This document shows, piece after piece, positions 1-50,865 of a DNA stretch of 50,865 nt; position 1 is the stretch's first letter; the number at the start of each line of letters is the position of its first letter. The translations under genes and the position numbers were made by a program. The stretch comes from Escherichia phage vB_EcoS_swan01, in the sequence record NC_048202.1; one strand, given 5' to 3'. Below the pieces are notes generated by a model. That model worked only from the letters and a program-made list of their open reading frames with translations. It had not been told where the DNA came from and made no database searches.

Positions 1-127
1 CAAAAAGCATCAACCTTGCCCACACTGCGGCGGTAAGGATCGTTTTAGATGGACTGATAAGCTAAATGAAGAGGGCGACGGCGGCGCGATCTGCAACGTG
101 TGCGGCAACGACACGGGGATCGGTTGG
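1..127. repeat. terminal direct repeat, identical to 50739..50865
   Basis: exact 127-bp duplication of window start and end. Confidence 0.9.
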
Positions 128-923: not shown

Positions 924-2903
924 ATGGCGATTTACAGACAAGGCCAAGCGTCTATGGACGCGCAAGGTTATGTAACTGGTTACGGTACAAAATGGCGTGA
1001 GCAATTAACATTGATTCGCCCAGGCGCAACTATTTTCTTTCTTGCTCAACCTTTGCAAGCTGCTGTGATTACAGAAGTGATTAGCGATACAAGCATTCGC
1101 GCAATTACTACTGGCGGCGCGGTAGTCCAGAAGACAAATTACCTGATCTTGCTTCATGACTCGTTAACGGTTGACGGTCTTGCGCAAGACGTAGCGGAAA
1201 CGCTGCGTTATTACCAGGGGAAGGAATCGGAGTTTGCTGGATTTATTGAGATCATCAAGGATTTTGATTGGGATAAGCTACAGAAGATCCAGGAAGACGT
1301 AAAGACAAATGCTGACGCAGCAGCAGCAAGCCAGCAGGCAGCTAAAACCAGCGAGAATAACGCGAAGACAAGCGCAACAAATGCAGCGAATAGCAAGAAA
1401 GGTGCTGATACTGCAAAGGCTGCCGCTGAATCCGCGCGCGACGCTGCAAACACTGCAAAGACTGGCGCTGAAGCAGCAAAGTCTGGCGCTGAATCCGCTC
1501 GTGACGCTGCGAACACTGCAAAGGCAGGAGCTGAAAGTGCGCGAGATCAAGCGGAGGAATACGCAAAGCAGGCGGCAGAACCTTACAAGGACTTATTGCA
1601 ACCGTTGCCGGACGTGTGGATACCATTTAATGACTCCCTGGATATGATTACCGGATTCTCGCCGTCATACAAAAAGATTGTTATAGGTGACGATGAGATC
1701 ACGATGCCAGGTGACAAGATAGTTAAGTTTAAACGAGCATCAACCGCTACTTACATTAATAAGTCTGGGGTGCTTACTAATGCTGCTATTGATGAACCTA
1801 GATTTGAAAAGGATGGTCTGCTCATTGAGGGGCAAAGAACAAACCTTCTTATAAATAGTACCAATCCTTCAAAATGGAACAAGTCATCAAATATGATCTT
1901 AGATAGATCAGGTGTAGATGATTTCGGATTCCAGTACGCAAAATTTACATTAAAACCAGAAATGGTAGGACAAACTTCAGCGATTAACATAGTAACCGTT
2001 TCCGGCAGTAGAGGTTTTGATGTAACAGGAAATGAAAAGTATGTAACCATATCATGCAGGGCGCAAAGTGGGACTCCAAATTTAAGATGCCGATTACGAT
2101 TTGAAAACTACGATGGATCTGCTTATGCATTTTTGGGTGATGCTTACGTAAATCTGACAGATTTATCAATTGAAAAAACTGGCGGCGCTGCAAATCGTAT
2201 TACTGCAAGGGCTGTTAAAGATGAAGCAAGCAAATGGATTTTCTTTGAGGCAACAATTAAAGCGCTTGATACAGAAAATATGATCGGTGCAATGGTGCAG
2301 TATGCACCAGCAAAAGATGGAGGGGGCACTGGTGCAGATGATTATATTTATATTGCTACCCCTCAAGTTGAAGGAGGTGTGTGCGCTTCATCGTTTATTA
2401 TTACAGAAGCGACTCCAGTAACACGGGCAAGCGATATGGTGACAATCCCAATCAAGAATAACCTTTATAATCTTCCTTTTACTGTTCTTTGTGAGGTACA
2501 TAAGAACTGGTATATAACGCCAAATGCTGCGCCTCGTGTTTTCGATACTGGAGGTCATCAATCTGGTGCGGCAATTATTCTTGCTTTCGGATCTGCTGAT
2601 GGCGATAATGATGGATTCCCTTATTGCGATATAGGTAAATCAAACAGAAGGGTTAACGAGAATGCGAAACTAAAAAAGATGATCATAGGAATGAGAGTAA
2701 AGAGTGATTACAATACTTGTTGTGTAAGTAATGCCAGAATATCAAGCGAAACAAAAACGGAATGGAGATATATAGTATCAACGGCTACTATAAGGATTGG
2801 CGGACAAACAAGTACAGGCGAACGCCATCTTTTCGGTCACGTTAGAAACTTCCGTATATGGCACAAGGCACTAACAGATCATCAATTGGGGGAAATTGTA
2901 TAA
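924..2903 (+). CDS. tail fiber protein
   Basis: 660-aa ORF with Ala-rich coiled-coil repeats (AESARDAANTAK x2) and a beta-rich C-terminal half; strong RBS; ATG at 924 inside track ORF 900..2903. Confidence 0.7.
   Translation: MAIYRQGQASMDAQGYVTGYGTKWREQLTLIRPGATIFFLAQPLQAAVITEVISDTSIRAITTGGAVVQKTNYLILLHDSLTVDGLAQDVAETLRYYQGKESEFAGFIEIIKDFDWDKLQKIQEDVKTNADAAAASQQAAKTSENNAKTSATNAANSKKGADTAKAAAESARDAANTAKTGAEAAKSGAESARDAANTAKAGAESARDQAEEYAKQAAEPYKDLLQPLPDVWIPFNDSLDMITGFSPSYKKIVIGDDEITMPGDKIVKFKRASTATYINKSGVLTNAAIDEPRFEKDGLLIEGQRTNLLINSTNPSKWNKSSNMILDRSGVDDFGFQYAKFTLKPEMVGQTSAINIVTVSGSRGFDVTGNEKYVTISCRAQSGTPNLRCRLRFENYDGSAYAFLGDAYVNLTDLSIEKTGGAANRITARAVKDEASKWIFFEATIKALDTENMIGAMVQYAPAKDGGGTGADDYIYIATPQVEGGVCASSFIITEATPVTRASDMVTIPIKNNLYNLPFTVLCEVHKNWYITPNAAPRVFDTGGHQSGAAIILAFGSADGDNDGFPYCDIGKSNRRVNENAKLKKMIIGMRVKSDYNTCCVSNARISSETKTEWRYIVSTATIRIGGQTSTGERHLFGHVRNFRIWHKALTDHQLGEIV
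1425..1523 (+). repeat. in-frame tandem coding repeat within tail fiber gene
   Basis: two near-identical ~36-bp units gctgaatccgc(g/t)cg(c/t)gacgctgc(a/g)aacactgcaaag separated by 27 bp. Confidence 0.6.
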
Positions 2904-8138: not shown

Positions 8139-11100
8139 ACCAGCTTCCGGTAATCCTTCCGACTTCAACCCTCAATACTCCGTTTGCATCTTTTACCTTC
8201 AATCCCTCATTGGTGAATTTAGTAGCTCCTTCTCCTGGCGTTGATCCGTAATTCTCAAAGATTCCGTTTTTATCAAGCCTCCATCCTTGCTGGTTTTGAA
8301 CAAAGTTGTTTGACTGAATCACATTACCAATCATCGCATTAGTGATTGAACCGTTCTTCACCAAAAGACTATTAATGAAAACCTGATTATTCTCAACCAC
8401 GAAAGGCAAAGTAAAAGTCCCTCCAGTAGAGCTAGTCATAATGGCGAACCTGTTAGCATCAAACAAAATTTGCGAGATAAGGCCGGATGAACCCTGCGAA
8501 AGCTGCATCACCATTCCTGCGCTGTATTGCTGGCCTTTGTAAGTAAGGCCAAGTTTCATAGCGTATTTAGCGCCAACTGAATCAACGCTCGCCCAAGAAT
8601 CCAACTTTTCAACCAATGCAGATTCAACGTCGCCAAATCGTGCTGTTAATGCCTGGTCAGCCTGAACCCTTGCCTCTGTCTCATTGGCGATCGCCTGTTT
8701 CACTTCTGAGATGTTAGCCTCGACTTCTGTTTTGATAACTCCGTCAAGGTCGTTTATCTCTTTCGTGAACTTAGCGTCAAGCTGCTGAACGGCCTGAGCG
8801 CGCGCTTCTGACTCGTTAGTGATTGTCTGCCTTACATCGCTAATGCTTGCAGAAGTATCCTTGCGCACGCCGTCGATTTCTTTTGTGAATTTAGAATCAA
8901 GCTGCTGAATTTGAGTCGCTCGCGTCTCTGATTCAGTGGCAATTGCCTCCTGCACTGTCTTGATGCTTGATGTTATCTCGCCATCAATTGAAGCCCTTAA
9001 CTCTTCGATTTGAGTTACGCGCGCTTCTGTTTCATTGGCGATAAGCTCAAGAGCATGACCATATTCAGCCTTACGCTTTCCGTTTTGTACTCGCGTCCAC
9101 TTCACATCAGCATCGTTTGCCAATGCGTTCTGGATGATTGATTGCGCCTGGTCTTTGATTTTGTTGGCACTGTCTATGGCGTTCTCTTTGATTTCTTGAC
9201 CAGCTTCTGTATCAAAAATCTTGTCCAGAATGTCGCCCAAAACAGATTCAACGTCATCTGACGCCATGCCACGAACAAAGTCAGTCCAGCTTGAAACGTT
9301 GCCTATTCTGTCAACGCTGCGGATTCTATACCATACAACTTGCCCCGCTGGTAACGTGCTATGCCAATACTCATATTGAGGATATGGAATCAGCGTAAGC
9401 AAACTTGAGTTTTCCACCGTTCCGTCTGGCGATTGGTGAAGCTCAATGTAAGCCGTATCGCCTGATCCTTCCGGCATACCCCATTTGACACGAATGCCAA
9501 AAACTTCATTATCAGAAGCAGTAAGGTTTATCGGTGCTCCTGGCTCGCCAACTTTACCTGTCAGAGTAGCAGTAACAATCTTTGACCACGGGGAAGTGTT
9601 ACCGCTTGCAGAAACAGATCTCACCCTTACTTGGTAGTTGCCAGAATAAATTCCTTCTACCTCTATCTCTTTGTTAGCGGTCTGCGGCGTATTCAGCCAG
9701 TTACCATCACCTTTTCGCCACTGCATTTCATAAAGCGATGCGTAAGGAACCTTATCCCATGAAACAACCATAGTCTCAACGCTAACACCCTGCACGACGC
9801 GAGAATAAGATGAGATCTTAACGTTCTCAGGCGCTGCCATCACGTCAGGCTGAACAATTGAAGTAGGTCTGTCATCAATGTTTACTCCATAATCAATCTC
9901 GTCGTATTTGTTCGGATCGTACTCTACAGCCGTGATTGAATAGGTAAACTCGTTTTCGTCATCACCCTTGCTGATGGTTGTCACAACGTATTGCTGCAAC
10001 GCAAGATCAGTACGGTCAATCGCAAAAACAGTATCAGGCTTAACATCAAAACCAAATCCAATATTTAACTCAATGGTTTTTCCGTCTGCGCTAACCTTTG
10101 AGATCGTGCGCTTAACTGGCTTGCCGTCCGGCTTGTTGATGATAATAAAATCACCAGGGCGAGCATCAACCTTAAACGGAACGAAAACCTGCAGCCCTGA
10201 AACTTCCATTACTCGGCCCGATAGGTTTAACGTTAGGTTGCTACTCTGAAAATTATCAGCGATAGCAATAACATCACCTATTGATGGAATCATCCCCTCT
10301 AGTCCGGTAGCAAAGTTTACAGTAGTGCTTCTAAGGTTTGTTTTCAAAACCCAACGACCGCGACGATTCGCTTCGCTCCTGCGCGTGCACCCGATCGCTG
10401 TAATGCTTGTTGGGTTGTATCCAAATCGTAATGCCGCCTCAGTATCAAAAACCCCCTCTACGTCCTGCTGATACATGTTTTGTTCGTCGTCAAACGTCAC
10501 GTTACACTGCGTGTACATGCTTTTTTCGCTTGCGTTTGTGTACTGAAAATCACCGTTGATGACGTTTTCATTAGTAAACACGTATGATGGATCGCGCGGC
10601 TTATCAATCACGATTGATAAGCTCTCACCATTCCAAAAACTCATTCCGCGAAAGATTGAGCAAATGTCACGGATTAGCTGATAAGCCTCAACTTGATTCT
10701 GAATCACCACATCGCATAGGTAGCGAGGCTCAGTGCCGCCTTTACCGTCTGGAACTTTCTGATCGCAGTAAACGCCAGCCTCGTATAAGCTCCACTTGTC
10801 GATCTGTATTCCTAACTCTCGCTGATCAAGTCCATAACGCTGATTTGTCACCAGATCATAAAGAACCCAAGCAGGATTATTTGACCACGCTTTTTTAAAA
10901 GTCCCATCCCATGACCCGTGATATTCTCTTGATATTGGATCATAGTTGCTTGGCACATTAATAATCTTCCATTTCTTTTTTATAGAAATGTTAGGGATTT
11001 GCGTAGGAAACAATTCGCTGTCAAATTCTACGAATACAAGTCCAGTCAGAGGATAGCGGAATTTTGCATCAACAACCTCAGCGTAACTTTGCAGCTTGAT

Positions 11101-17646: not shown

Positions 17647-17692
17647 TTATAGCACTTTTTGTTAAAAGTGGAATTAATTTATTTGATAGATT
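17647..17692 (+). promoter_or_regulatory. motif copy inverted relative to the late genes (TATAGCACTTTTTGTTAAAA, 22 nt, TAGATT)
   Basis: conserved motif with a -10-like hexamer at canonical spacing, but pointing antisense to the tail genes; in gene sense the motif directly abuts the AAGGAG RBS of the G gene. Confidence 0.45.
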
Positions 17693-21400: not shown

Positions 21401-21445
21401 GATAGCACTTTTTGTTAAAGCGTCAAAGCGTTTTTATGTTATTCA
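21401..21445 (+). promoter_or_regulatory. motif copy inverted relative to the late genes (GATAGCACTTTTTGTTAAAG)
   Basis: conserved motif; a weak sigma70-like arrangement TTGTTA-N17-TATGTT points antisense into 21439..22452; in gene sense the motif precedes a hairpin and the capsid gene RBS. Confidence 0.4.
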
Positions 21446-24129: not shown

Positions 24130-24885
24130 TTAACTGTTCCAATCTGGTATGGCCCAACAACGACAACCGAAAGGCTCACCAGGAAAATCATGTTCAGAAT
24201 CTAGCGCAATGCGCTTACCTTCCCATTGTACATGCTGCAATCGCTCTCTGTCATCAAGCATACCATGCCAAAAATAATGAGTTACTTTTGAATCATAAAG
24301 ACGCTGGCGCATGAGTCTACTATTCCAAGCGCCTATGATGTTTTCCGCCCTTGTCTTACCCCAAGAGCTATACACTGCGAACCTCTTACCAGCCAATTCA
24401 TTAACCTGGCTATCTCTCATTCCGCGAAAGTTTGCCAATCTAATATTGGTTGACCAGTCAGACACGATGTTTCCAAATAGCTTTTGAAGAGATGCGATCG
24501 TCATGTCATGCCATTGACCGTATAGCGTCCTATACCAACTCTCATTCGCATTGGCCCCAATAGCCATAAGGATGATAACGGCTGAATTTGACTTGCCTCC
24601 CGTTGATTTGGCTACGTTAATAAATTGCTTCGCGTTGAATTTATAAACAGCAAGACCGATAGCCGGAAGTGATGCGGCGATGCCAGCTATTAGCTTTAAC
24701 GCGAAGCTACTAATCTCATCCTCTGCGGCGTTGATTTCTTCGGTGTCCGCGTCAAATTTCATTTCCTTTGTTTTGCTGCGCATCAGCACAACAAGATCCC
24801 TTATCGCCTCCTGAATTGAGCGGCGCAATTGCCGCTCGCTTGCTTCAGGAAAGCGCCATTGTTTAACGACGCCTTTCACTATCAT
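24130..24885 (-). CDS. head morphogenesis protein (Mu F / SPP1 gp7-like)
   Basis: C-terminal W/H-rich motif ending PFGCRCW; immediately downstream of the portal gene. Confidence 0.65.
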   Translation of the reverse strand: MIVKGVVKQWRFPEASERQLRRSIQEAIRDLVVLMRSKTKEMKFDADTEEINAAEDEISSFALKLIAGIAASLPAIGLAVYKFNAKQFINVAKSTGGKSNSAVIILMAIGANANESWYRTLYGQWHDMTIASLQKLFGNIVSDWSTNIRLANFRGMRDSQVNELAGKRFAVYSSWGKTRAENIIGAWNSRLMRQRLYDSKVTHYFWHGMLDDRERLQHVQWEGKRIALDSEHDFPGEPFGCRCWAIPDWNS

Positions 24886-26174
24886 TGATTGCTACCCTCT
24901 GTTGTTCCTGGCTCCGGCTCTACGTCTTGCTCAGGTAATTTAATGTCATTGCCGTCTTTTAGTTTAACGTTAGGCGCAATGGCTCGCAATGTGTCGCGCG
25001 CCTCTTCTGCATCCATGAATTGACCGTCAATAGCCTTACTCAAAGAATCAATGTTCTTGTTCAAGATTTCGGCCTGGTCCTTTTCGCTTGGAACGCTTAA
25101 CGGCGCAAACTGAATGCTCCATTCTTCCTCTTGAATAAGGAACGGGATCAGAAATTCAAGGATTGGTTTGTATTCTTCCTTTCGCTTTCGGTCGATCAGC
25201 TTGTAGAAGGTTTCAAGCGCCGTGTTTTGGCTAGCGCTAACACCGCCAACGTTCTTGTTTTTGAGGATGATTTCATGGATGCCGGAAAGAGATACAATGC
25301 GATCCATCTTCTTTTCCAAGAACGAATCGACGGCAGAAATATCAGAATTTAAAACATCATATTCCTCATCTTCCGCATCAATGCCGATCGCACGGCCTAC
25401 GCCACCCTCATCATCAACTTGAGCAAGTCGCAAACGTGCGGCACTAACACCATCATCATCATCACAAAGATCAGCAAGACCTTTAACTTTCCATACCGCC
25501 TGTTGCTTACGTCGCAACAATTGAGTTGCTAAGTTTTCGCAGTAGTTATAATCACAAATAGCCTCAACAAGTCTCTTATTCAGGATCGACTCACCCCACC
25601 CATCATTTGATTGACGCCGCTGATTTGGTAGCCGCTCACCGTCGATAATACAGACTCGCGAATAGTGAACCTGGTATTCTGGCAAGTCGACACCAGGTGA
25701 AATGGTGTAAATTAATGGCTCACCATATCTTACCTTGCGTGGATTAGTTTCGCGCTTTTCTACCCTAACCTGAAAGCGATCGTAAACGCGAACATCTTCA
25801 AGGATTGCACCAGGCGCTACAGGTGACTTTAACGACCTGCCATCCTGGACGATTGCCACGATTGCAGCGCCACCAAAAAGACGCGACCAGCAAAGCGCAT
25901 CAATGATTTTATCGTTTAGTCGCTTCTCATCCCACAAAGATCTAAAACTTTCCTCATCTTCCACGCCATCAATATTAAATCCAGGCGTCACCATTTCTTC
26001 TGGAACAACGTCGATGATTCGTTTTGCTAGGCCGTCACGAATGTAAAAATCAGCGTGCGTGGTGTATTCGAACCCCTGCATAAAGAAAGGCAACTCTACA
26101 CGCCCATTGCCCTTACTACCCTTGAAAATCTCGTTGTATCCATCGGCCTTAACTAGCCTTGTTTTTTCGCTCAT
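24882..26174 (-). CDS. portal protein
   Basis: about 430 aa, acidic C-terminus, located directly after the large terminase gene. Confidence 0.65.
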   Translation of the reverse strand: MSEKTRLVKADGYNEIFKGSKGNGRVELPFFMQGFEYTTHADFYIRDGLAKRIIDVVPEEMVTPGFNIDGVEDEESFRSLWDEKRLNDKIIDALCWSRLFGGAAIVAIVQDGRSLKSPVAPGAILEDVRVYDRFQVRVEKRETNPRKVRYGEPLIYTISPGVDLPEYQVHYSRVCIIDGERLPNQRRQSNDGWGESILNKRLVEAICDYNYCENLATQLLRRKQQAVWKVKGLADLCDDDDGVSAARLRLAQVDDEGGVGRAIGIDAEDEEYDVLNSDISAVDSFLEKKMDRIVSLSGIHEIILKNKNVGGVSASQNTALETFYKLIDRKRKEEYKPILEFLIPFLIQEEEWSIQFAPLSVPSEKDQAEILNKNIDSLSKAIDGQFMDAEEARDTLRAIAPNVKLKDGNDIKLPEQDVEPEPGTTEGSNQ

Positions 26175-26189
26175 CGTCAAATCTCCATA

Positions 26190-26218
26190 ATAAAAAAGGC
26201 TGGAAAAATCCAGCCTTG
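26190..26218 (-). terminator. hairpin plus T-run between TerL and portal genes
   Basis: aggctgga-aaaat-tccagcct followed by T6 on the minus strand. Confidence 0.5.
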
Positions 26219-26229
26219 ATTATATAACT

Positions 26230-26250
26230 TTTTAGCAATTAGTGCTATTT
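26230..26250 (-). promoter_or_regulatory. motif copy with atypical downstream context
   Basis: AAATAGCACTAATTGCTAAAA on the minus strand overlapping the TerL stop (TAG); TATAAT lies only 8 nt after TTGCTA and a terminator hairpin follows. Confidence 0.4.
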
Positions 26251-27813
26251 ATTGCGTAGACCAGCCAGCTTTTTCATCCTTGCTACCGGATCATCAGCCA
26301 AGTTCATTTCGACGTTAACAGCATCAACTATATTATCGACAATATCATCATGGGGATGAGAATCGTCAAAAGTGAACGCTGCAACCTCTGCCAGTATCTC
26401 AGGTAACATGGGATGACTTTCTGGCAGTGCCACACGTCCGGCCCTCATTACTGGCGCGGCGTCCATTGCTCGCGTTACCTTGTCATTGCTTCGCTGAACG
26501 GGATTTATATCAATCGGGATCTTCTTTTTGGCCCCCTGAATCAAACCCGTGCCGCTGGCCTTATCCTCAATGTGGATACGTCGCAAGCTGCCACACTCCT
26601 TATTGCGCTTCCAGCACTGATTAACGAAGGCAATAAAATTTAATTCAAGATCCGGCGCTTCCCACTTTCCGCGAATGCCATCAATGAAGTAAACGCGATT
26701 CTTATACATCCCCCAATAACAAAAAACTGAATAGTCGTTAAGCTCTCCGGCCTTCTGCGCGGTATCACCAGTAATAAATGTGTATTCAAAGCGATCCGGT
26801 TTAGGAAGTGCGCATTTTTCGCCGCTGCCGTAATACTGGAACCACTCTGTTTTAAACACGTTGCCGCCAAGCGCGATGGGTTGCTGTTGGTACTGACTGG
26901 CGAACGTATAAGGATCTGCATTGCGCAATGCAAGCAATTCCTCCGCGCTTTCCTTTGCAGGCCAAAATGAATAATGAGCAACGCCATCTATCATCACTGG
27001 CTTACTTGACAACACATCACGATCAAATTCAGGCTTCAACCAATCAGGAAGCGTTTCGCGGTATTCTTTCGTAACCAGCGCCGGAATACTCACAACTTTA
27101 AACTCAATACCACCCATCCCGCCATTAAGCATAAACCAGGTGGAATCATTAACGTGTAGTCGCTGTTGCACCATAACAATCGGCGTAGTGTCTTTCATTC
27201 GACGCGATCGCACTGTGTTTTTTAACCGCATGTGGATCGCCTCACGCTTGACCTTAGAAAGCATATCATCCGGCTTGTCTGGATCGTCCAGAACCAGCAT
27301 ACCAGTAAAACCATCGTCCATATAGCCGCCACGCAAACCTGTTACCTGTCCGCCAATAGAACGTGAGTTAACTTGCAATTTAACCTTGCCGCCATCCGTA
27401 ACTATGAGATCTTTTGCGCTCGCCTTTGCCAGTTTTCCTGGCCATAGCTCTTGCCACTCAGGAGAACCGATAATCTCCTTTATCCTGTTGCTGTTTTGCT
27501 GGACAAGTCCATCACTAAACGAAAGGTTAAGGTTTCTCACCTTCCGACTTTTCAATGACGCGTAGGGTGACATGTGGATCGAGAAAATCTCAGTCTTACC
27601 GCTACCTGGCGTAATGTTGAAAATCACATTCTGCGACTCTCCATTGATGATCTTCTCTACCTCACTGCACAATAAGCTAAAATGCCAGTTGCTCTGGAAT
27701 TTTTGCCCCTGCAATAACTGAAACCAGATTCTGATCATCTTTTCGAATGAATGCTCACTGATTTCTTTAATGGCTCGCTTTTGCGCCGCCGTCAAATCTT
27801 CCCATATGATCAT
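26245..27813 (-). CDS. terminase large subunit
   Basis: 522 aa; Walker A-like ITPGSGKTE and Walker B-like LVLDDPD; C-terminal nuclease-like region; follows TerS. Confidence 0.8.
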   Translation of the reverse strand: MIIWEDLTAAQKRAIKEISEHSFEKMIRIWFQLLQGQKFQSNWHFSLLCSEVEKIINGESQNVIFNITPGSGKTEIFSIHMSPYASLKSRKVRNLNLSFSDGLVQQNSNRIKEIIGSPEWQELWPGKLAKASAKDLIVTDGGKVKLQVNSRSIGGQVTGLRGGYMDDGFTGMLVLDDPDKPDDMLSKVKREAIHMRLKNTVRSRRMKDTTPIVMVQQRLHVNDSTWFMLNGGMGGIEFKVVSIPALVTKEYRETLPDWLKPEFDRDVLSSKPVMIDGVAHYSFWPAKESAEELLALRNADPYTFASQYQQQPIALGGNVFKTEWFQYYGSGEKCALPKPDRFEYTFITGDTAQKAGELNDYSVFCYWGMYKNRVYFIDGIRGKWEAPDLELNFIAFVNQCWKRNKECGSLRRIHIEDKASGTGLIQGAKKKIPIDINPVQRSNDKVTRAMDAAPVMRAGRVALPESHPMLPEILAEVAAFTFDDSHPHDDIVDNIVDAVNVEMNLADDPVARMKKLAGLRNK

Positions 27814-35861: not shown

Positions 35862-36128
35862 TGTCTCGACGGTCATATGTTCTGTCTTCGTGCCTTTGCC
35901 ATTGCTTTTCGACACTTCCCAGCTAGTCGTGCCCTTACAGTTGGTGAAGTAAACAGTGCGATCGTCATAGAATCGGTAAACGGTGCAACCGTCAGCGGTG
36001 AATAGCTCCCTTACGCTGTAGTCATCGCCAGGGTTAGCCATCTGCACATTGCCAACATGCGCGCCATCTTCTTTGCATCCGGTCAGGAATGCCATTGCCG
36101 CCAAAACGCTGATTAATGCCTTTTTCAT
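35856..36128 (-). CDS. lipoprotein
   Basis: start at MKKALISVLAAMAFLTGC (signal peptide plus lipobox); ATGA overlap with the upstream gene. Confidence 0.55.
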   Translation of the reverse strand: MKKALISVLAAMAFLTGCKEDGAHVGNVQMANPGDDYSVRELFTADGCTVYRFYDDRTVYFTNCKGTTSWEVSKSNGKGTKTEHMTVETK

Positions 36129-38781: not shown

Positions 38782-38993
38782 TGGCAAAGCAATTAAAACT
38801 TAAATGCGTAGAAACTTATAACTCAACTTGGAGATTTACGCGCGGAAAAGAATACCCGCTAATGGGAAATCTCAAAGAAGATCCTCATGTAATTTCAGAT
38901 AATGGCCTTCACCTTTATTTAATGGAATACAACGATGGCTATATTGGTGCTGGTGTTCCAGGCCATAAATTTAAGATGAAAAATAAGAAATGA
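38781..38993 (+). CDS. small protein, member of a paralogous family
   Basis: LKCVETYNSTWRFTRGKEY...LHLYLMEYNDG resembles 34227..34448 and 33985..34230. Confidence 0.5.
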   Translation: MAKQLKLKCVETYNSTWRFTRGKEYPLMGNLKEDPHVISDNGLHLYLMEYNDGYIGAGVPGHKFKMKNKK

Positions 38994-39101
38994 GGCTATT
39001 TATTTTCAAAAATGCCTGGATGGTAGCGGTTGCAAATGACCATTACGGCGGCGACGGAAAAAGAGCACGACGCCATTCATATTTCAATTGAGGATATTTA
39101 A

Positions 39102-39718: not shown

Positions 39719-40429
39719 ATGTATAAAGGTTTAATATTCTCCCTATTTGATGGATCTGGTAAAGCAGTTAAAGATTGGGCTGATAATGGCTATAAGTGCA
39801 TTTGCTTTAATGCTGACGGCGGCGATCACGGTGATTACCAGTCAGTGCGCATACAGCATGAGAATATCGAATACGTTAACGTCTGGATTGATGATGCTTT
39901 TTATGTTAAGGCAATCAATAATGAGTGGGGCAATCCTGATTTTATTATGGCGTTCCCTCCTTGCACCGACCTTGCAAATAGCGGATCTCGCCATTGGGCC
40001 AAAAAACGCCTTGAGAATCCATCGTTCCAGGATGAGGCCGCCGACACTTGCAGAATCGCGGCTGATATAGCTGATTATTTCGGTGTTCCTTACATGATCG
40101 AAAATCCGGTTGGCAAGTTGTCAACGTTATGGCGTAAGCCTGATTATACGTTCCATCCGTGCGATTACGCTGGCTATCTGCCGGAAGATGATAAACATCC
40201 CGACTTCCCTGATATTATTCCGGCGCGTGATCGCTATTTTAAGAAAACGTGCCTCTGGACTGGCAACGGCTTTGTTATTCCTCCGCGCGCTTTAATCCTG
40301 CCGAAAGAGGAAGACAAAGATAATCCAGGCTGGGCCAAAACTGGCGGCAAGTCATCGCGCACAAAGATGATCCGCTCCCTCACTCCGCGCGGATTTGCTC
40401 GCGCCGTCTTTGAGTCAAACTCAAAATAG
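39719..40429 (+). CDS. DNA (cytosine-5) methyltransferase-like protein (putative)
   Basis: motif I-like LFDGSG, motif IV-like FPPCTD...SG and motif VI-like ENPVG in the canonical order; start could also be ATG 39713. Confidence 0.45.
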   Translation: MYKGLIFSLFDGSGKAVKDWADNGYKCICFNADGGDHGDYQSVRIQHENIEYVNVWIDDAFYVKAINNEWGNPDFIMAFPPCTDLANSGSRHWAKKRLENPSFQDEAADTCRIAADIADYFGVPYMIENPVGKLSTLWRKPDYTFHPCDYAGYLPEDDKHPDFPDIIPARDRYFKKTCLWTGNGFVIPPRALILPKEEDKDNPGWAKTGGKSSRTKMIRSLTPRGFARAVFESNSK

Positions 40430-40469
40430 CACTTTTTGTTAAAAGCCAGGTGTAAAAACCTGGCATAAT
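40424..40469 (+). promoter_or_regulatory. motif promoter-like element (AAATAGCACTTTTTGTTAAAA, 22 nt, CATAAT)
   Basis: TAG stop of the upstream gene lies at motif positions 4-6; inverted repeat in the spacer; leader CATCGAACAAACAAAGGAG. Confidence 0.6.
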
Positions 40470-40498
40470 CACATCGAACAAACAAAGGAGATCTGATC

Positions 40499-40885: not shown

Positions 40886-41103
40886 TAAACAGTGAAAACC
40901 GTTACAAAGTAACGCATTCTACCACAAAGACTTTCAAGCCTGGCGATATAGTCAGGCCCATCAAAAAAACTGCGGTAGGTTGGCTGATTGGTTTTTCATA
41001 TCATAAGGCGCTTTACTTTACGTTTAAGGATGGGATTACAGGAGAATGCTACAGCGACCGCCAGCCTGATCGACTTCTGGTTGCAATAGAGCGGATCAAA
41101 TAG
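40882..41103 (+). CDS. small protein (possible member of the small paralog family)
   Basis: 73 aa; TFKPGDIV motif resembles MFKPGEIY of 34227..34448. Confidence 0.5.
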   Translation: MINSENRYKVTHSTTKTFKPGDIVRPIKKTAVGWLIGFSYHKALYFTFKDGITGECYSDRQPDRLLVAIERIK

Positions 41104-41143
41104 CACTTTTTGACAAAACGGGGTAGTATTGGGACGTTAAAAT
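41098..41143 (+). promoter_or_regulatory. motif promoter-like element (AAATAGCACTTTTTGACAAAA, 22 nt, TAAAAT)
   Basis: variant with TTGACA in place of TTGTTA; TAG stop embedded; precedes the 526-aa P-loop protein gene. Confidence 0.55.
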
Positions 41144-41171
41144 TTACGGCCCACAAAGGAGAAGCTAACGA

Positions 41172-42752
41172 ATGTTTTCATTAGAAACGAACAAATTAAC
41201 TCCACAACAAATAATCGCTATGGCTGAAAGCCAGAACCTCTCACCAGTTCGCGTATCAATTCAGGCTAACGGCTATCGCCAGTCGTCCAGCTTTTGGGGC
41301 GACGTAAAGGATGTGAATAGCGGTCACGATCGCTACCCCGTTATTTCTCTTGGTAATGATATTGATGTTGTCGGCAAGTTATCACGCAGCATTGCGCGAT
41401 CCGTTCAATTCCCTGAATCATCGGCTTACATGCACTTTATCGGCTGCATTTCTGCCGCTATGCTTGGACGCTTTACGGTTGACTATCACGGAACCGATCA
41501 GCCGACTGCGCTTTACGTCGTTACAAGCCAGCCGCCGTCAACTGGTAAATCTGCGATCAACAGCATGGCTATTGCTCCGATGATTGCGGAAGTTGAGAAG
41601 ATCAACGAGCAACGCCGCAAGGAAAGAAAGAAAATACAGGCAAAGCTGGCAGGTCTTGCAAAGGAGATGAAAAGCGAAAGATCCGGCGCTGATATGGAAT
41701 CTCTATACCAGGAAAAAGAGGATCTGGAGGAAAAGCTGGAAAAAATGTGTGATATAACTTTTCCTGTTTCAGATACAACTCCAGAAGGCTTGGCGAAAAT
41801 CAACAACAAGCAAGGTAACTTTGCCGTAATATCTGATGAAGCAACAAGTATTAACAGTCTGTTAGGCTTGACCTATGCAAATAGCGAAAGGAAGACTAAC
41901 AGTGAGTTAGTGCTTAAGGCGTGGGATAATGGTCACGTATCAATTGCCCGTGCTAATGCTGACAATAATATGAGTTTTCGCGCGCTTGGATGTATGAGCG
42001 TCATAGCCCAGGATGAAACGATAAGCGGAATCATGGACGCTGGATCGCGAGGCATCGGTGTTAGTGAGCGTTTTTTGTTGGTCCGCGAGGAATCATTCTT
42101 AGGCCGTCGCTCATTCATTGATGAAAATGGTGATTCTACCTATGAGGCGGTGGATTCTGAATTGAAAGCCCAATATTATCAATTGGTGCATAACATCATG
42201 AGCGAATCAAATATATCGCTGAAAATAAGCCGTTCAGCTATGCGAGTGCTCAACATTGCTCGCCAGGATATGGAACCGCATCTTGCAGACGGAGGAAAGT
42301 ATTCTCATACAATGTTACGCGGTGCGCTGGGTAAAATGGATAAACAGGTGATCAGGCTTGCTTCCGTCCTGCATGTTATCCGTAACTGGTTTAATCCTGC
42401 CGGATACCCGCAGAAGTCGAAAGAGATCGACGTGGAAACAATGCAAGAGGCGTTGATCATGTTTCAGGAATTGAGCAAAACATACATTAGCGCCGCCAAT
42501 GCTTCTGGTTATGCTGGTGATGATGCTGAAATGGGTAAATTGATTGAATTGATCACGAGGCACGGCAAGGCTAATAAAGGGATTCTGAATATCCGCGCCC
42601 TGTACGAATCAGCGAGAAAGGTAAAACCTTTCGTTGGTCAGGCTGGCGTAATGAAAAGGATAGAAGGGCACTTACTGCCAATGCTGGAAGAAAGAAATTA
42701 TGTTTGTGTGATTAATGGTGTTATTTTTGTCAATCCAATACTGCTGGGATGA
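41172..42752 (+). CDS. P-loop NTPase, replication-associated (putative)
   Basis: 526 aa; Walker A-like SQPPSTGKSA; no further family assignment possible by eye. Confidence 0.5.
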   Translation: MFSLETNKLTPQQIIAMAESQNLSPVRVSIQANGYRQSSSFWGDVKDVNSGHDRYPVISLGNDIDVVGKLSRSIARSVQFPESSAYMHFIGCISAAMLGRFTVDYHGTDQPTALYVVTSQPPSTGKSAINSMAIAPMIAEVEKINEQRRKERKKIQAKLAGLAKEMKSERSGADMESLYQEKEDLEEKLEKMCDITFPVSDTTPEGLAKINNKQGNFAVISDEATSINSLLGLTYANSERKTNSELVLKAWDNGHVSIARANADNNMSFRALGCMSVIAQDETISGIMDAGSRGIGVSERFLLVREESFLGRRSFIDENGDSTYEAVDSELKAQYYQLVHNIMSESNISLKISRSAMRVLNIARQDMEPHLADGGKYSHTMLRGALGKMDKQVIRLASVLHVIRNWFNPAGYPQKSKEIDVETMQEALIMFQELSKTYISAANASGYAGDDAEMGKLIELITRHGKANKGILNIRALYESARKVKPFVGQAGVMKRIEGHLLPMLEERNYVCVINGVIFVNPILLG

Positions 42753-43144: not shown

Positions 43145-43265
43145 TGATTTTATTCATGCTTTACTTACGCTACTTTATTCAGATATGCGAGCTTTTAGCA
43201 CCACTGAACATGTTTTATGCAATGATGATGGTGTGTTATTGGTTACAGTAAAGCGTATGGAATAG
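43071..43265 (+). CDS. hypothetical protein (uncertain start, overlaps upstream gene)
   Basis: its TAG stop is embedded in the conserved motif as for other genes, but the ORF overlaps 42749..43144 by 74 nt. Confidence 0.3.
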   Translation: MMNCSRQKLIDKILKHCAVNSISHDDFIHALLTLLYSDMRAFSTTEHVLCNDDGVLLVTVKRME

Positions 43266-43305
43266 CATTTTTTGTTAAAACTCCCGACCTTGTGTCGGGT
43301 ATATT
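43260..43305 (+). promoter_or_regulatory. motif promoter-like element (GAATAGCATTTTTTGTTAAAA, 22 nt, TATATT)
   Basis: hairpin cccgac-cttgtg-tcggg in the spacer; leader CATCGAAACGAACC. Confidence 0.55.
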
Positions 43306-43342
43306 TGTTTCATCGAAACGAACCAACCAAAAAGGAAAAATT

Positions 43343-50093: not shown

Positions 50094-50570
50094 ATGAAAG
50101 ATGCACGAATTGCAGTATCTACGGGTGAGATCGACAAGCGCACTATTAACGGTAACAACGGAACGCGACGAGGTAAAGACAAAAAACCACGAAAACACCG
50201 AACCGGATTTCTTATCCTGCGAGATGAGGTAAAAGCAAGCCTGAAATCTCGCCTTGACATTCTGATCGAGTATTACGGCGGCGTTCCTGCTATGGCTCGA
50301 CGTCTGCGCGTATCTCAGCAAGTCGTTAACCAGTGGCGAAAGCGTGGTATGATTTCAGCCGCTGGAGCACAAAAGGTGCATAACGACTACAAATATAATG
50401 GATGCAAAGGATACCGCGCATCATTTTGTCGTCCAGATCTGCGGTTTGATTCTAACGGTAAGCCTCTTACTACCCGTTGCGACAAATACGATATGTTGCG
50501 CGTAGTCAAAAATTCAGACTACGAACCAGGCGGACGATTCTACAAAGGTGATAACAGCACGAATAGCTAA
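50094..50570 (+). CDS. HTH DNA-binding protein (Cro/YdaS-like, putative transcriptional regulator)
   Basis: GGVPAMARRLRVSQQVVNQWRKRG helix-turn-helix segment; basic N-terminus; followed by a terminator. Confidence 0.55.
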   Translation: MKDARIAVSTGEIDKRTINGNNGTRRGKDKKPRKHRTGFLILRDEVKASLKSRLDILIEYYGGVPAMARRLRVSQQVVNQWRKRGMISAAGAQKVHNDYKYNGCKGYRASFCRPDLRFDSNGKPLTTRCDKYDMLRVVKNSDYEPGGRFYKGDNSTNS

Positions 50571-50625: not shown

Positions 50626-50865
50626 ATGAATACTGAAAACTTTATGACCTATCAGAAAGAAGATGTTTTGCCATATATGAAGGGGTTATGGCGTGAAGCA
50701 CTACAAAGCATTTGCGGACTGCATAGCGATGTTTTCAACAAAAAGCATCAACCTTGCCCACACTGCGGCGGTAAGGATCGTTTTAGATGGACTGATAAGC
50801 TAAATGAAGAGGGCGACGGCGGCGCGATCTGCAACGTGTGCGGCAACGACACGGGGATCGGTTGG
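50626..50865 (+). CDS. primase-like protein, N-terminal part (continues at 2..817 across the terminal duplication)
   Basis: ATG at 50626; zinc-ribbon CPHCGGKDRFRW...CNVCGNDTGIGW; ORF runs off the window end into the 127-bp duplicated segment. Confidence 0.6.
   Translation, partial: MNTENFMTYQKEDVLPYMKGLWREALQSICGLHSDVFNKKHQPCPHCGGKDRFRWTDKLNEEGDGGAICNVCGNDTGIGW
50739..50865. repeat. terminal direct repeat, identical to 1..127
   Basis: exact 127-bp duplication of window start and end. Confidence 0.9.

What the first reader, a model, noticed from the sequence alone, without database searches (positions are those of the whole stretch)
26190..26250. Motif copy plus terminator hairpin between the large terminase and portal genes
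Here the motif overlaps the TerL stop, but TATAAT lies only 8 nt after TTGCTA and a hairpin with T-run follows before the portal RBS. This arrangement differs from all early copies and may be an attenuator or processing site that sets the terminase-to-portal expression ratio inside the late operon.
Basis: seen in the sequence. Interest (0 to 1): 0.35.

Follow-up and report, generated by a model that had tools for sequence, protein, structure and literature searches.

The report
Terminator-promoter junction before portal gene
Between the large-terminase and portal genes of this T1-like coliphage lies an ordinary transcription terminator that is already annotated at the same place in phage T1. 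A known family-wide repeat and a conserved promoter-like TATAAT box sit just upstream of it, so the site looks like a stop-and-restart junction between two gene blocks rather than anything new in kind.

Summary
On the minus strand the 21-nt Drexlerviridae repeat aaATAGCACnnnTTGnTAAAA (26250-26230) overlaps the terL TAG stop. A perfect TATAAT (26224-26219) lies 8 nt after TTGCTA. A 9-bp hairpin (26217-26196, -15.3 kcal/mol) with a T6 run precedes the portal RBS and ATG.

The window is a T1-like coliphage. The hairpin is the orthologue of the rho-independent terminator already annotated between terL and portal in T1, Chapo and TLS (T30). The repeat is the published 'DR' of TLS/T1, whose function is unknown.

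What is new:
- In 92 repeat copies from five genomes, a -10-like hexamer sits 21-23 nt after TTGnTA in 88%. The terL-portal copy uses a rare 8-nt register instead. That register is conserved across genera, although the five bases in between vary freely.
- The TAnnnT hexamer is conserved even in lineages that lack the repeat or the T-run.
- The whole block stays next to portal when an extra gene (an HNH endonuclease in the one tested) is inserted after terL.

Best reading: a transcription-unit junction. The terminator ends the terS-terL unit, and it is overlapped by a -10 element whose start site falls inside the 5' stem arm, so portal transcripts would escape termination. No RNA-end data exist. 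It is ordinary in kind and of modest interest.

The parts
26245..27813 (-). Large terminase gene (terL); TAG stop at 26247-26245
   Evidence: ORF list; Pfam Terminase_6C 8.6e-11; 100% identical to the annotated terL of phage ityhuna.
26230..26250 (-). 21-nt Drexlerviridae direct repeat AAATAGCACTAATTGCTAAAA, overlapping the terL Lys-stop codons; TTGCTA at 26238-26233
   Evidence: Matches the published consensus aaATAGCACnnnTTGnTAAAA (PMC11447400) at all specified positions. There are 17 copies in the window against 0 expected. AAATAGCAC is invariant in 20 distinct intergenic variants.
26225..26232 (-). 8-nt interval (AAAAGTTA) between TTGCTA and the hexamer; its last five bases vary freely in relatives while its length stays at 8 (9 in W011D-type)
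   Evidence: Alignment of 20 distinct variants.
26219..26224 (-). TATAAT, a sigma70 -10-like hexamer lying one base 5' of the 9-bp hairpin (three bases 5' of the GGCTGGA core stem)
   Evidence: Sequence. TA.AAT is invariant in 20 variants with variable flanks. TATAAT, TAAAAT, CATAAT or TATACT is present in T1, TLS, Webervirus, Nouzillyvirus, Rogunavirus and L038. The -35 position holds TAGCAC (2/6) and there is no TGn.
26196..26217 (-). Terminator hairpin AAGGCTGGA-TTTT-TCCAGCCTT (core stem 26215-26209 / 26204-26198, loop 26208-26205)
   Evidence: dG -15.3 kcal/mol, z -4.9; terminator scan. Orthologues are annotated as terminators in T1, Chapo and TLS. Compensatory changes occur in T1/Chapo and L038.
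26188..26197 (-). U-tract: TTTTTT (26197-26192) followed by ATTA
   Evidence: Sequence; TTTTT(T)ATT is invariant in relatives.
26183..26186 (-). Portal Shine-Dalgarno GGAG, 8 nt before the ATG
   Evidence: Sequence; conserved.
24882..26174 (-). Portal gene (ATG at 26174-26172)
   Evidence: Pfam Phage_portal_3, 1e-75. The listed TTG start at 26180 lies too close to the SD.

Best explanation
The interval is the boundary between two late transcription units ('transcriptons') of a T1-like phage.

(1) Shown by sequence and comparison: the hairpin 26217-26196 plus its U-tract is a Rho-independent terminator. It ends transcripts of the terS-terL unit, which itself begins after the terminator at 28413-28396. 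It is the orthologue of the terminator annotated in T1, Chapo and TLS.

(2) Inferred: the conserved TATAAT just 5' of the stem is a sigma70 -10 element that starts the portal/head-assembly unit. A start about 7 nt downstream (around 26212-26210) lies inside the 5' arm. Transcripts made there would keep at most 4 bp of the stem and would not be terminated. Terminator and promoter therefore overlap, and the two units are insulated from each other rather than simply attenuated.

(3) The 21-nt repeat is the family's promoter-associated element of unknown binding partner. Here it sits in a rare but conserved 8-nt register, which puts its ATAGCAC half at the -35 position. In the usual 22-nt register the whole motif is centred near -41. 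Whether it helps, blocks or times this promoter is not known.

My confidence is about 0.85 for step 1 and about 0.45 for step 2.
For: Terminator:
- Canonical 9-bp GC-rich stem, 4-nt loop and T6 run; -15.3 kcal/mol, z -4.9.
- Annotated orthologues: T1 10545..10573, Chapo and TLS T30.
- The stem is kept at -13.8 to -16.2 kcal/mol in the 12 variants that carry a T-run, and at -15.6 and -13.1 in the two Webervirus hairpins that lack one. Double compensatory changes occur: G-C to U-A and A-U to C-G in T1/Chapo, and A-U to G-C in L038.

-10 element:
- TA.AAT is invariant in 20 distinct variants, while the five bases before it take about 10 different sequences.
- A hexamer matching TATAAT at >=5/6 is present at the terL-portal junction in every lineage read. 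T1 and Chapo have TATAAT, TLS TAAAAT, L038 TATACT and ESCO41 TATAAT. Jk06 has TATAAT in a canonical repeat-22-nt arrangement with no terminator. Webervirus has TTGAAA-17-CATAAT, 10/12, followed by a hairpin with no T-run.
- The repeat-TATAAT-hairpin-RBS block stays adjacent to portal when an extra ORF is inserted after terL (L026, L027, E6; the L026 ORF is an HNH endonuclease).
- RNAs starting at 26212-26210 fold to only -6.9 to -4.5 kcal/mol and have no terminator stem.

Precedent in the family:
- In T1 35995(-) and TLS 35240(-) a repeat copy is followed by an annotated terminator whose loop holds the -10 at 22 nt.
- Three of T1's annotated 'terminators' are the spacer hairpins of repeat promoters.

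Stoichiometry (inference): portal and head-assembly proteins are needed at least as abundantly as terminase. A strong terminator with no restart would therefore be counter-productive.
Against: - No 5' or 3' RNA-end data exist for any T1-like phage in the searchable literature.
- In the window there is no usable -35 (TAGCAC 2/6, ATAGCA 3/6) and no extended -10 TG, so the promoter would be weak without a factor.
- AT-rich sequence 5' of terminator stems is common. Two other T1 late terminators also have a -10-like hexamer 1-3 nt upstream, there partly formed by stop codons.
- The stem sequence GGCTGG/CCAGCC is itself very conserved, so covariation rests on few events.
- The lineages compared share ancestry, so their agreement is not fully independent.
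- The 8-nt register cannot use the repeat in the way the 22-nt promoters do, so the repeat's role here is unexplained.
Confidence: 0.5

Rival explanations
1. Plain internal attenuator. The hairpin terminates a fraction of late transcripts coming from terL, and portal is expressed only by read-through. TATAAT and the repeat copy have no function at this site.
For: The terminator features are canonical and conserved. The -35 is poor and there is no TGn. -10-like hexamers next to other T1 terminators can be explained by stop codons and AT-richness.
Against: The hexamer is invariant while its flanks vary. It persists where the terminator has no T-run (Webervirus) or is absent (Jk06, ESCO41). A 9-bp stem with a T6 run would lower portal and head-protein expression below terminase, which is the wrong direction for stoichiometry (inference).
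Confidence: 0.25
2. Canonical repeat-dependent promoter nested inside the terminator. The functional -10 is the hexamer at the usual 22 nt from TTGCTA (GATTTT, 26210-26205, in the hairpin loop). This would resemble T1 35995 and TLS DR10-T57, where the -10 sits in the loop of a real terminator. The start site would lie at the 3' arm or U-tract.
For: The 22-nt rule holds in 66 of 92 copies, and 21-23 nt in 81 of 92. T1 35995(-) and TLS 35240(-) have TAACAT or TATCAT in the terminator loop at 22 nt. In relatives the hexamer at 22-23 nt from TTGCTA reads GACAAT, GACTAT or GAAAAT, with A at position 2 and T at position 6.
Against: These loop hexamers are poor: 2-4 of 6, always with G at position 1, which was never seen among the 22-nt hexamers listed for the window, T1 and TLS. 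The loop varies freely. The A at position 2 is explained by the closing base pair. This model does not explain why the upstream TATAAT is conserved in phages that lack the repeat.
Confidence: 0.1
3. The repeat copy is a protein roadblock or repressor site. These are the 'stoperator' and enhancer-binding ideas raised for the TLS repeats. Bound at -36 to -18 relative to TATAAT, the same factor that activates the 22-nt promoters would occlude this one, or would stop elongation from terL. Either way it would time portal expression.
For: The repeat is kept perfectly in many lineages at this site, and the TAG stop is invariant. Its position relative to TATAAT overlaps the -35 and spacer region. The phage encodes a weak Cro/YdaS-like HTH protein at 50094-50570.
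Against: No binding protein is known. The repeat is degenerate in Hanrivervirus (TCGACAAAC) and absent in T1, TLS and L038, although the rest of the junction is kept. It is therefore dispensable for the junction's core function.
Confidence: 0.1
4. RNA processing or stability element. The AU-rich stretch followed by a stem-loop would be an RNase E cleavage site, or a 3' protective hairpin, that uncouples the decay of terL and portal mRNA.
For: The AU-rich single-stranded segment AAAAAGUUAUAUAAUC lies just 5' of a stable stem.
Against: There is no specific evidence. The 9-bp stem is too short for RNase III, and no Rfam match was found. The U-tract immediately after the stem is the signature of termination rather than processing.
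Confidence: 0.05

Closest known systems
Rho-independent terminator annotated between terL and portal in phage T1 (NC_005833, 10545..10573), also in phage Chapo and as T30 in TLS (PMC11447400, Table S1)
   Same: The genomic position is the same. So is the layout: -10-like hexamer, GGCTG-type stem, T-run, ATT, SD, portal ATG. Stability is similar, at -13.8 to -16.1 kcal/mol.
   Different: T1, Chapo and TLS have no repeat copy upstream. T1 and Chapo carry GTC/GAC in place of GGA/TCC in the stem (compensatory). The terL 3' end of the window is closer to Changchunvirus and Hanrivervirus (about 75%) than to T1 (about 69%).
21-nt direct repeats of TLS/T1/Rtp/Rogue1 (aaATAGCACnnnTTGnTAAAA; PMC11447400)
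   Same: Perfect consensus match. It is co-oriented with transcription and starts 76 nt before the start codon, the distance reported for TLS. It has a T/G-AA-type middle triplet (TAA).
   Different: TLS lists no repeat at the terL-portal junction. Here the -10-like hexamer is 8 nt from TTGCTA rather than 22 nt, and a true terminator follows it.
Repeat + terminator composites T1 35995(-)/35930..35971 and TLS DR10-T57 (between the 'transcriptional regulator' and primase genes)
   Same: Repeat, then a hairpin with T-run, then TTTTTTATT, then GGAG and a start codon. A terminator and a presumptive promoter are superimposed.
   Different: There the hairpin loop is large (15-17 nt by the hairpins written out) and contains the -10 at the canonical 22 nt. 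Here the loop is 4 nt and the good -10 lies 5' of the stem.
T4 middle promoters (MotA box plus sigma70 -10; recalled from general knowledge, not tested)
   Same: A phage-specific upstream motif containing TTGCT replaces a normal -35, combined with a TAnnnT -10 read by host RNA polymerase.
   Different: The MotA box is centred at -30, with about 12 bp to the -10, and needs MotA and AsiA. No homologues were looked for or found here. The spacings here are 22 or 8 nt. This is resemblance only.

Membership tests
Intrinsic (Rho-independent) terminator | GC-rich stem of >=5 bp with a 3-8 nt loop | tested here: met
   9 bp (5 G-C pairs), 4-nt loop, -15.3 kcal/mol, z -4.9.
Intrinsic (Rho-independent) terminator | U-tract directly 3' of the stem | tested here: met
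   TTTTTT at 26197-26192 followed by ATTAT; invariant in relatives.
Intrinsic (Rho-independent) terminator | On the sense strand, downstream of a stop codon, in an intergenic gap | tested here: met
   Lies 28 nt after the terL TAG and 22 nt before the portal ATG, on the minus strand.
Intrinsic (Rho-independent) terminator | Structure maintained in relatives, with compensatory change | tested here: met
   Three double changes (two in T1/Chapo, one in L038) and one U-A to U-G change. All 12 T-run-bearing variants fold at -13.8 to -16.2 kcal/mol. The number of events is small.
Intrinsic (Rho-independent) terminator | RNA 3' ends and a measurable termination efficiency | not testable with these tools
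   No Term-seq or RNA-end data for T1-like phages were found.
Drexlerviridae 21-nt direct repeat (PMC11447400) | Consensus aaATAGCACnnnTTGnTAAAA | tested here: met
   AAATAGCACTAATTGCTAAAA, with 0 mismatches at specified positions.
Drexlerviridae 21-nt direct repeat (PMC11447400) | Same orientation as transcription, at a gene boundary, about 76 nt before the start codon | tested here: met
   Minus strand, as for terL and portal. Position 26250 to the ATG at 26174 is 76 nt.
Drexlerviridae 21-nt direct repeat (PMC11447400) | -10-like hexamer 21-23 nt after TTGnTA (a rule derived here: 81 of 92 copies in five genomes) | tested here: not met
   The hexamer at 22 nt is GATTTT (3/6). The only good hexamer is at 8 nt. 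The 8-nt register recurs only at this junction and at the yfiJ-type helicase promoter.
Sigma70 promoter | -10 hexamer TAnnnT | tested here: met
   TATAAT, 6/6; conserved across the family.
Sigma70 promoter | -35 hexamer 16-18 nt upstream, or an extended -10 TGn | tested here: not met
   TAGCAC 2/6 and ATAGCA 3/6; the bases before the hexamer are TTA. Webervirus does have TTGAAA-17-CATAAT.
Sigma70 promoter | Mapped transcription start | not testable with these tools
   No data are available.
RNase III processing site | Roughly 20 bp of double-stranded RNA | tested here: not met
   The stem is 9 bp. Extended pairing in the 96-nt fold consists of weak A-U pairs that are mostly absent from the centroid structure.
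Stoperator (mycobacteriophage L5 type) | Asymmetric site bound by a phage repressor that blocks elongation | not testable with these tools
   No repressor or binding data are available. The repeat is dispensable at this junction in T1 and TLS.

The most novel reading that the evidence does not exclude
T1-family phages may run most of their genome on a dedicated, still unassigned promoter system. The 19-21-nt repeat would be bound by an unknown phage or host factor centred near -41 of -35-less promoters (fixed 22-nt spacing). Each -10 would be deliberately buried in or beside a hairpin of free sequence that stops or stabilises the upstream transcript. Every intergenic module would then be a superimposed terminator/promoter. 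On this reading the terL-portal site is a second functional register (8 nt) of the same system, in which the factor occupies the -35 and spacer region and could switch or time portal/head expression.
Probability: 0.2. Interest if true: 0.55.

Novelty: new member of a known kind. Interest (0 to 1): 0.27.

Why it matters
On its own the site is an ordinary, already annotated type of late-operon terminator, so it matters little.

Its value is as a natural variant. It shows that in T1-like phages terminators and promoter elements are physically interleaved, and that the family's unexplained 21-nt repeat occurs in two conserved registers relative to a -10 box.

T1-like phages are common laboratory contaminants and candidates for phage therapy, yet they have no published transcription map. 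A handful of 5'/3'-end mapping experiments at this junction would test the long-standing 'transcripton' idea for T1. They would also give a handle on what the repeat does.

Tried and rejected
- TTGCTA as the -35 of the TATAAT: rejected, because the spacer is 8 nt.
- TTGnTA as a normal -35 for the other copies: rejected, because the spacing is 22 nt rather than 16-18.
- Standard sigma70 promoter scan: no enrichment over shuffles anywhere in the window (23 vs 20, 27 vs 36, 33 vs 38), and nothing at this site.
- UP-element reading of the repeat: its T- and A-tracts are about 8 bp out of register with the UP consensus, and the conserved ATAGCAC is not A/T-tract-like (my own comparison from memory, not a tool test).
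- lambda nut-like boxA/boxB reading: the hairpins after the repeats differ in sequence and loop from copy to copy, so a specific hairpin-binding antiterminator is unlikely.
- TATAAT conserved only because it pairs with the ATTAT after the T-run: rejected, because the pairing is not kept in T1 or TLS.
- Rfam: no family at gathering threshold in the whole window, and only chance-level hits (all far below gathering score) in 26050-26400.
- MAFFT alignment of hairpins for automated pair counting: the stems were misaligned, so the pairs were read from individual folds instead.
- Literature searches for T1-family TSS, Term-seq or transcriptome data found nothing. The T1 genome paper (Virology 2004) is not held.
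- The hairpin-position classification is weak evidence, because almost any 60-nt segment contains a 5-bp helix.

Full report
WHAT THE WINDOW IS. The 50,865-nt window is a complete T1-like coliphage genome (Drexlerviridae, Tunavirus). A 1.3-kb query around the finding is 100% identical to phage ityhuna and 97.5-99.8% identical to the other Tunavirus records listed. The first and last 127 nt are identical, which indicates an assembly overlap or a circular permutation. Late genes lie on the minus strand. They include terS (PF16677), terL 27813..26245 (Terminase_6C), portal 26174..24882 (Phage_portal_3, 1e-75), a Mu F-like head morphogenesis gene and a DUF2213 protein that occupies the position of the gene annotated 'head maturation protease' in T1.

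CHECKING THE OBSERVATION. Read on the minus strand, the interval is:

...CGC AAT AAA TAG CAC TAA TTGCTA AAAAGTTA TATAAT C AAGGCTGGA TTTT TCCAGCCTT TTTT ATTAT GGAG ATTTGACG ATG.

- The terL stop TAG (26247-26245) lies inside the 21-nt element AAATAGCACTAATTGCTAAAA (26250-26230).
- TATAAT (26224-26219) begins 8 nt after TTGCTA (26238-26233).
- The hairpin 26217-26196 has 9 bp and a 4-nt loop, and folds at -15.3 kcal/mol. Shuffles average -3.7, giving z -4.9, and none of 200 folds as well.
- A T6 run (26197-26192), GGAG (26186-26183) and the portal ATG (26174) follow.

The element is not a chance match: 17 copies at <=1 mismatch occur in the window against none in 100 shuffles.

THE MOTIF IS A PUBLISHED REPEAT OF UNKNOWN FUNCTION. 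The 2024 re-annotation of phage TLS (PMC11447400) describes a 21-nt direct repeat with consensus aaATAGCACnnnTTGnTAAAA. It reports 21 copies, oriented with transcription and about 76 nt before start codons, and says similar repeats occur in T1, Rtp and Rogue1. The authors offer only hypotheses for its function: stoperator, enhancer-binding site or UP element. The copy here matches every specified position and starts 76 nt before the portal ATG. TLS itself lists no repeat at this junction.

THE HAIRPIN IS AN ALREADY ANNOTATED TERMINATOR. RefSeq T1 carries a 'rho-independent transcriptional termination site' at 10545..10573, between terL and portal. Phage Chapo has one too, and TLS Table S1 lists T30 there. 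The sequences are:

- T1: TAA TAAATGAGA TATAAT TAG GGGCTGTC AATT GACGGCCC TTTTTATT GGAGG.
- TLS: TAA TGTG TAAAAT CAAA GGCTGGA ATAT TCCGGCC TTTTTATTAT GGGGG.

Across 33 intergenic sequences (24 of them distinct) drawn from GenBank and IMG/VR, the stem is retained. The 12 variants that carry a T-run fold at -13.8 to -16.2 kcal/mol. T1 and Chapo carry two double compensatory changes (GGA/TCC to GTC/GAC), and L038 carries one (A-U to G-C). I regard the terminator assignment as secure in the bioinformatic sense. Its efficiency is unknown.

HOW THIS COPY DIFFERS FROM THE OTHERS. I mapped all repeat copies at <=2 mismatches in the window, T1, TLS, Jk06 and W011D, which gave 92 copies.

- A -10-like hexamer ([T/C]AnnnT, >=4/6) lies exactly 22 nt after TTGnTA in 66 copies, and at 21-23 nt in 81 copies (88%).
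- That spacing is too long for a -35/-10 pair. It places the repeat at about -52 to -32, centred near -41.
- The only secondary peak is at 8 nt (7 copies, plus 1 at 9 nt).
- A pattern scan of all IMG/VR shows that the 8-nt register occurs at only two orthologous loci. One is this junction. The other is the promoter of the yfiJ-type helicase, which also carries the 22-nt hexamer.

The terL-portal arrangement is therefore a genuine, conserved exception and not a degenerate copy.

WHAT IS CONSERVED AT THE JUNCTION. I aligned 20 distinct repeat-bearing variants.

- AAATAGCAC is invariant, including the TAG stop. TTGCTAAA is nearly invariant.
- The next five bases are free: AGTTA, GTGGA, GTAGA, GCGTG, CCATG, GCATG, GTGGT, CAATA, and in the 9-nt W011D-type variants AGCTGA and AACTGA.
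- TA.AAT is invariant (TATAAT or TACAAT).
- The stem, the T-run, ATT and the SD are conserved. The loop and the SD-to-ATG spacer vary.

The repeat is degenerate in Hanrivervirus (ATAGCACGAATCGACAAAC) and absent in T1, Chapo, TLS, L038 and L035. The -10-like hexamer, by contrast, is present in every lineage:

- T1 and Chapo have TATAAT, TLS TAAAAT and L038 TATACT.
- Webervirus has CATAAT as part of TTGAAA-17-CATAAT (10/12). It is followed directly by a hairpin that has no T-run.
- Nouzillyvirus has a hairpin and then TATAAT.
- Rogunavirus Jk06 has a fully canonical repeat-22 nt-TATAAT with a small spacer hairpin and no terminator.

In three contigs an extra ORF is inserted after terL (L026, L027 and 'Campylobacter' phage E6). 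The L026 ORF is an HNH endonuclease (HNH_3, 3e-18). The L027 ORF was not scanned and the E6 ORF had no Pfam hit. In all three contigs the whole block of repeat, 8 nt, TATAAT, hairpin and SD stays directly upstream of portal. These facts argue that the block belongs to portal's 5' control region, and that a -10 element there is under selection independently of both the repeat and the T-run.

MECHANISM I THINK MOST LIKELY. The site is a boundary between transcription units. The terS-terL unit starts after the terminator at 28413-28396, which is followed by TGGTATAAT, and ends at the 26217-26196 terminator. The portal to head-assembly unit runs to the next terminator at 22496-22473. A start about 7 nt after TATAAT falls at 26212-26210, inside the 5' arm of the stem. 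RNAs beginning there retain at most 4 bp of the stem and fold at only -6.9 to -4.5 kcal/mol, so they would not be terminated.

This overlap of terminator and promoter has precedents in the same family. In T1 35995(-) and TLS 35240(-) (DR10-T57), a repeat is followed by an annotated terminator whose loop contains the -10 at 22 nt. Three of T1's annotated 'terminators' (38973, 39998, 41980) are the spacer hairpins of repeat promoters. The idea also matches the 'transcripton' description that PMC11447400 quotes for the T1 late region.

What is shown: the anatomy, the conservation and the orthology to annotated terminators. What is inferred: that the -10 is used, where transcription starts, and that the terminator is efficient.

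WEAKNESSES. The window has no usable -35 (TAGCAC 2/6) and no TGn, so the promoter would need a factor or would be weak. Two other T1 late terminators also have -10-like hexamers 1-3 nt upstream that can be explained by stop codons and AT-richness. The lineages compared are related, so their agreement is not fully independent. No RNA-end data for any T1-like phage were found. The role of the repeat in the 8-nt register remains open. It puts ATAGCAC at -36 to -30 and TTGCTA at -26 to -21, where a bound protein would more plausibly occlude than activate.

RIVALS.
(i) A pure attenuator with read-through only (0.25).
(ii) A canonical repeat promoter using the loop hexamer GATTTT at 22 nt (0.1). These loop hexamers are poor, and this model does not explain the upstream TATAAT in repeat-less phages.
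(iii) The repeat as a roadblock or repressor site that times portal expression (0.1).
(iv) An RNase processing or stability element (0.05). The stem is too short for RNase III and no Rfam family matches.

COMPARISON WITH KNOWN THINGS AND NOVELTY. The terminator is a member of an annotated orthologous set, and the repeat is a member of a published repeat family. Two details are not in the literature I could search: (a) the conserved 8-nt register with a perfect -10 abutting the terminator, and (b) the family-wide -10 at this junction. I file the finding as a new member of a known kind.

SEEN ALONG THE WAY. The more interesting pattern is genome-wide. Repeat copies are followed at a fixed 22 nt by a -10. 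The 45 nt after the repeat fold far better than genomic background: median -12.6, -13.4 and -11.7 kcal/mol in the window, T1 and TLS, against about -6 for background (Mann-Whitney p 4e-4, 2e-8 and 3e-7). By eye, the -10 usually sits in the loop or the 3' arm, and orthologous copies show compensatory changes. The TLS paper mentions neither the 22-nt rule nor the hairpins.

Noticed in passing
window, e.g. 30436-30380(-), 31751-31695(-), 34521-34465(-), 40426-40480(+), 43262-43316(+), 46523-46467(-), 47593-47537(-); also L001 (T1), L046 (TLS), L047 (Jk06), L048 (W011D): In 92 copies of the 21-nt repeat from five genomes, a -10-like hexamer lies exactly 22 nt after TTGnTA in 66 and at 21-23 nt in 81. 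That spacing is too long for a -35/-10 pair, and the motif is centred near -41. The 45 nt after the repeat form unusually stable hairpins of free sequence (median about -12 to -13 kcal/mol against -6 for background; p down to 2e-8). The hairpins often enclose the -10, and orthologous copies show compensatory changes. The TLS paper describing the repeat does not mention this.
   Followed up: partly
window 41100-41150 (+); T1 L001 46158(-); TLS L046 45153(-); W011D L048 21074(+): The promoter of the yfiJ-type helicase gene carries two -10-like hexamers after the repeat, one at 8 nt (TAGTAT, TACCAT or TAGAAT) and one at 22 nt. Both are conserved in four phages although the flanks differ. In all of IMG/VR this is the only locus besides terL-portal that uses the 8-nt register.
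   Followed up: partly
window 17649-17667 (+), 21402-21420 (+), 906-888 (-): Repeat copies are oriented antisense to the surrounding late or tail genes, next to bidirectional-looking terminators. The 21402 copy corresponds to TLS DR7 and T1 15086(-). They could be antisense promoters or orientation-independent binding sites.
   Followed up: no
window 36648-36621 (-): This is the only perfect sigma70 consensus in the genome (TTGACA-16-TATAAT, 12/12). It lies directly upstream of a DUF7174 gene (36622-36125). Elsewhere, canonical promoter-like sites are no more frequent than in shuffled sequence, so this may be an immediate-early promoter.
   Followed up: no
window 50094-50570 (+): A 158-aa protein with a weak Cro/YdaS-like HTH (E 1e-6, below the Pfam cutoff) sits at the position of T1 ST23 'transcriptional regulator'. 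It is transcribed divergently from the helicase gene, whose upstream region carries a repeat copy (50082-50064). It is a candidate repeat-binding factor, but this was not tested.
   Followed up: no
L026 1807-2313, L027 (about 1800-2310), L004 656-1198 (phage E6): In some relatives an extra ORF is inserted exactly between terL and the repeat. The L026 ORF is an HNH endonuclease (HNH_3, 3e-18), the E6 ORF had no Pfam hit and the L027 ORF was not scanned. The stop codon of the inserted gene again overlaps the repeat (AAATAG or TAATAG), and the repeat-TATAAT-terminator block stays with portal.
   Followed up: partly
L047 (Jk06) 19757-19687 region; L040/L041 (Webervirus); L039 (ESCO41): The same junction is built differently in other genera. 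Jk06 has a canonical repeat-22 nt-TATAAT with no terminator. Webervirus has TTGAAA-17-CATAAT followed by a stable hairpin without a T-run. ESCO41 has a hairpin across the terL stop and then TATAAT.
   Followed up: partly
L001 (T1) 38973-39001, 39998-40024, 41980-42007: Three features annotated as rho-independent terminators in the T1 RefSeq record are the spacer hairpins of repeat promoters. Their 'U-tails' are the -10 hexamers (CATTAT, TATAGT, TATTAT).
   Followed up: partly
window 1-127 and 50739-50865: The two ends of the window are identical over 127 nt. This is probably an assembly overlap of a circularly permuted genome rather than a biological repeat.
   Followed up: no
window 1395-1546 (+): There are tandem 63-nt and 21/42-nt periodic repeats inside the 667-aa ORF 900-2903, which by position is the tail-fibre gene. 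They encode an Ala/Lys-rich repeated segment.
   Followed up: no
window 28413-28369 (-), 13922-13880 (-): Two late terminators are followed within about 10-25 nt by extended -10-type boxes: TGGTATAAT before terS and TGTTACAAT before the gene after 13922. This fits a terminator-then-promoter organisation of the late region.
   Followed up: no
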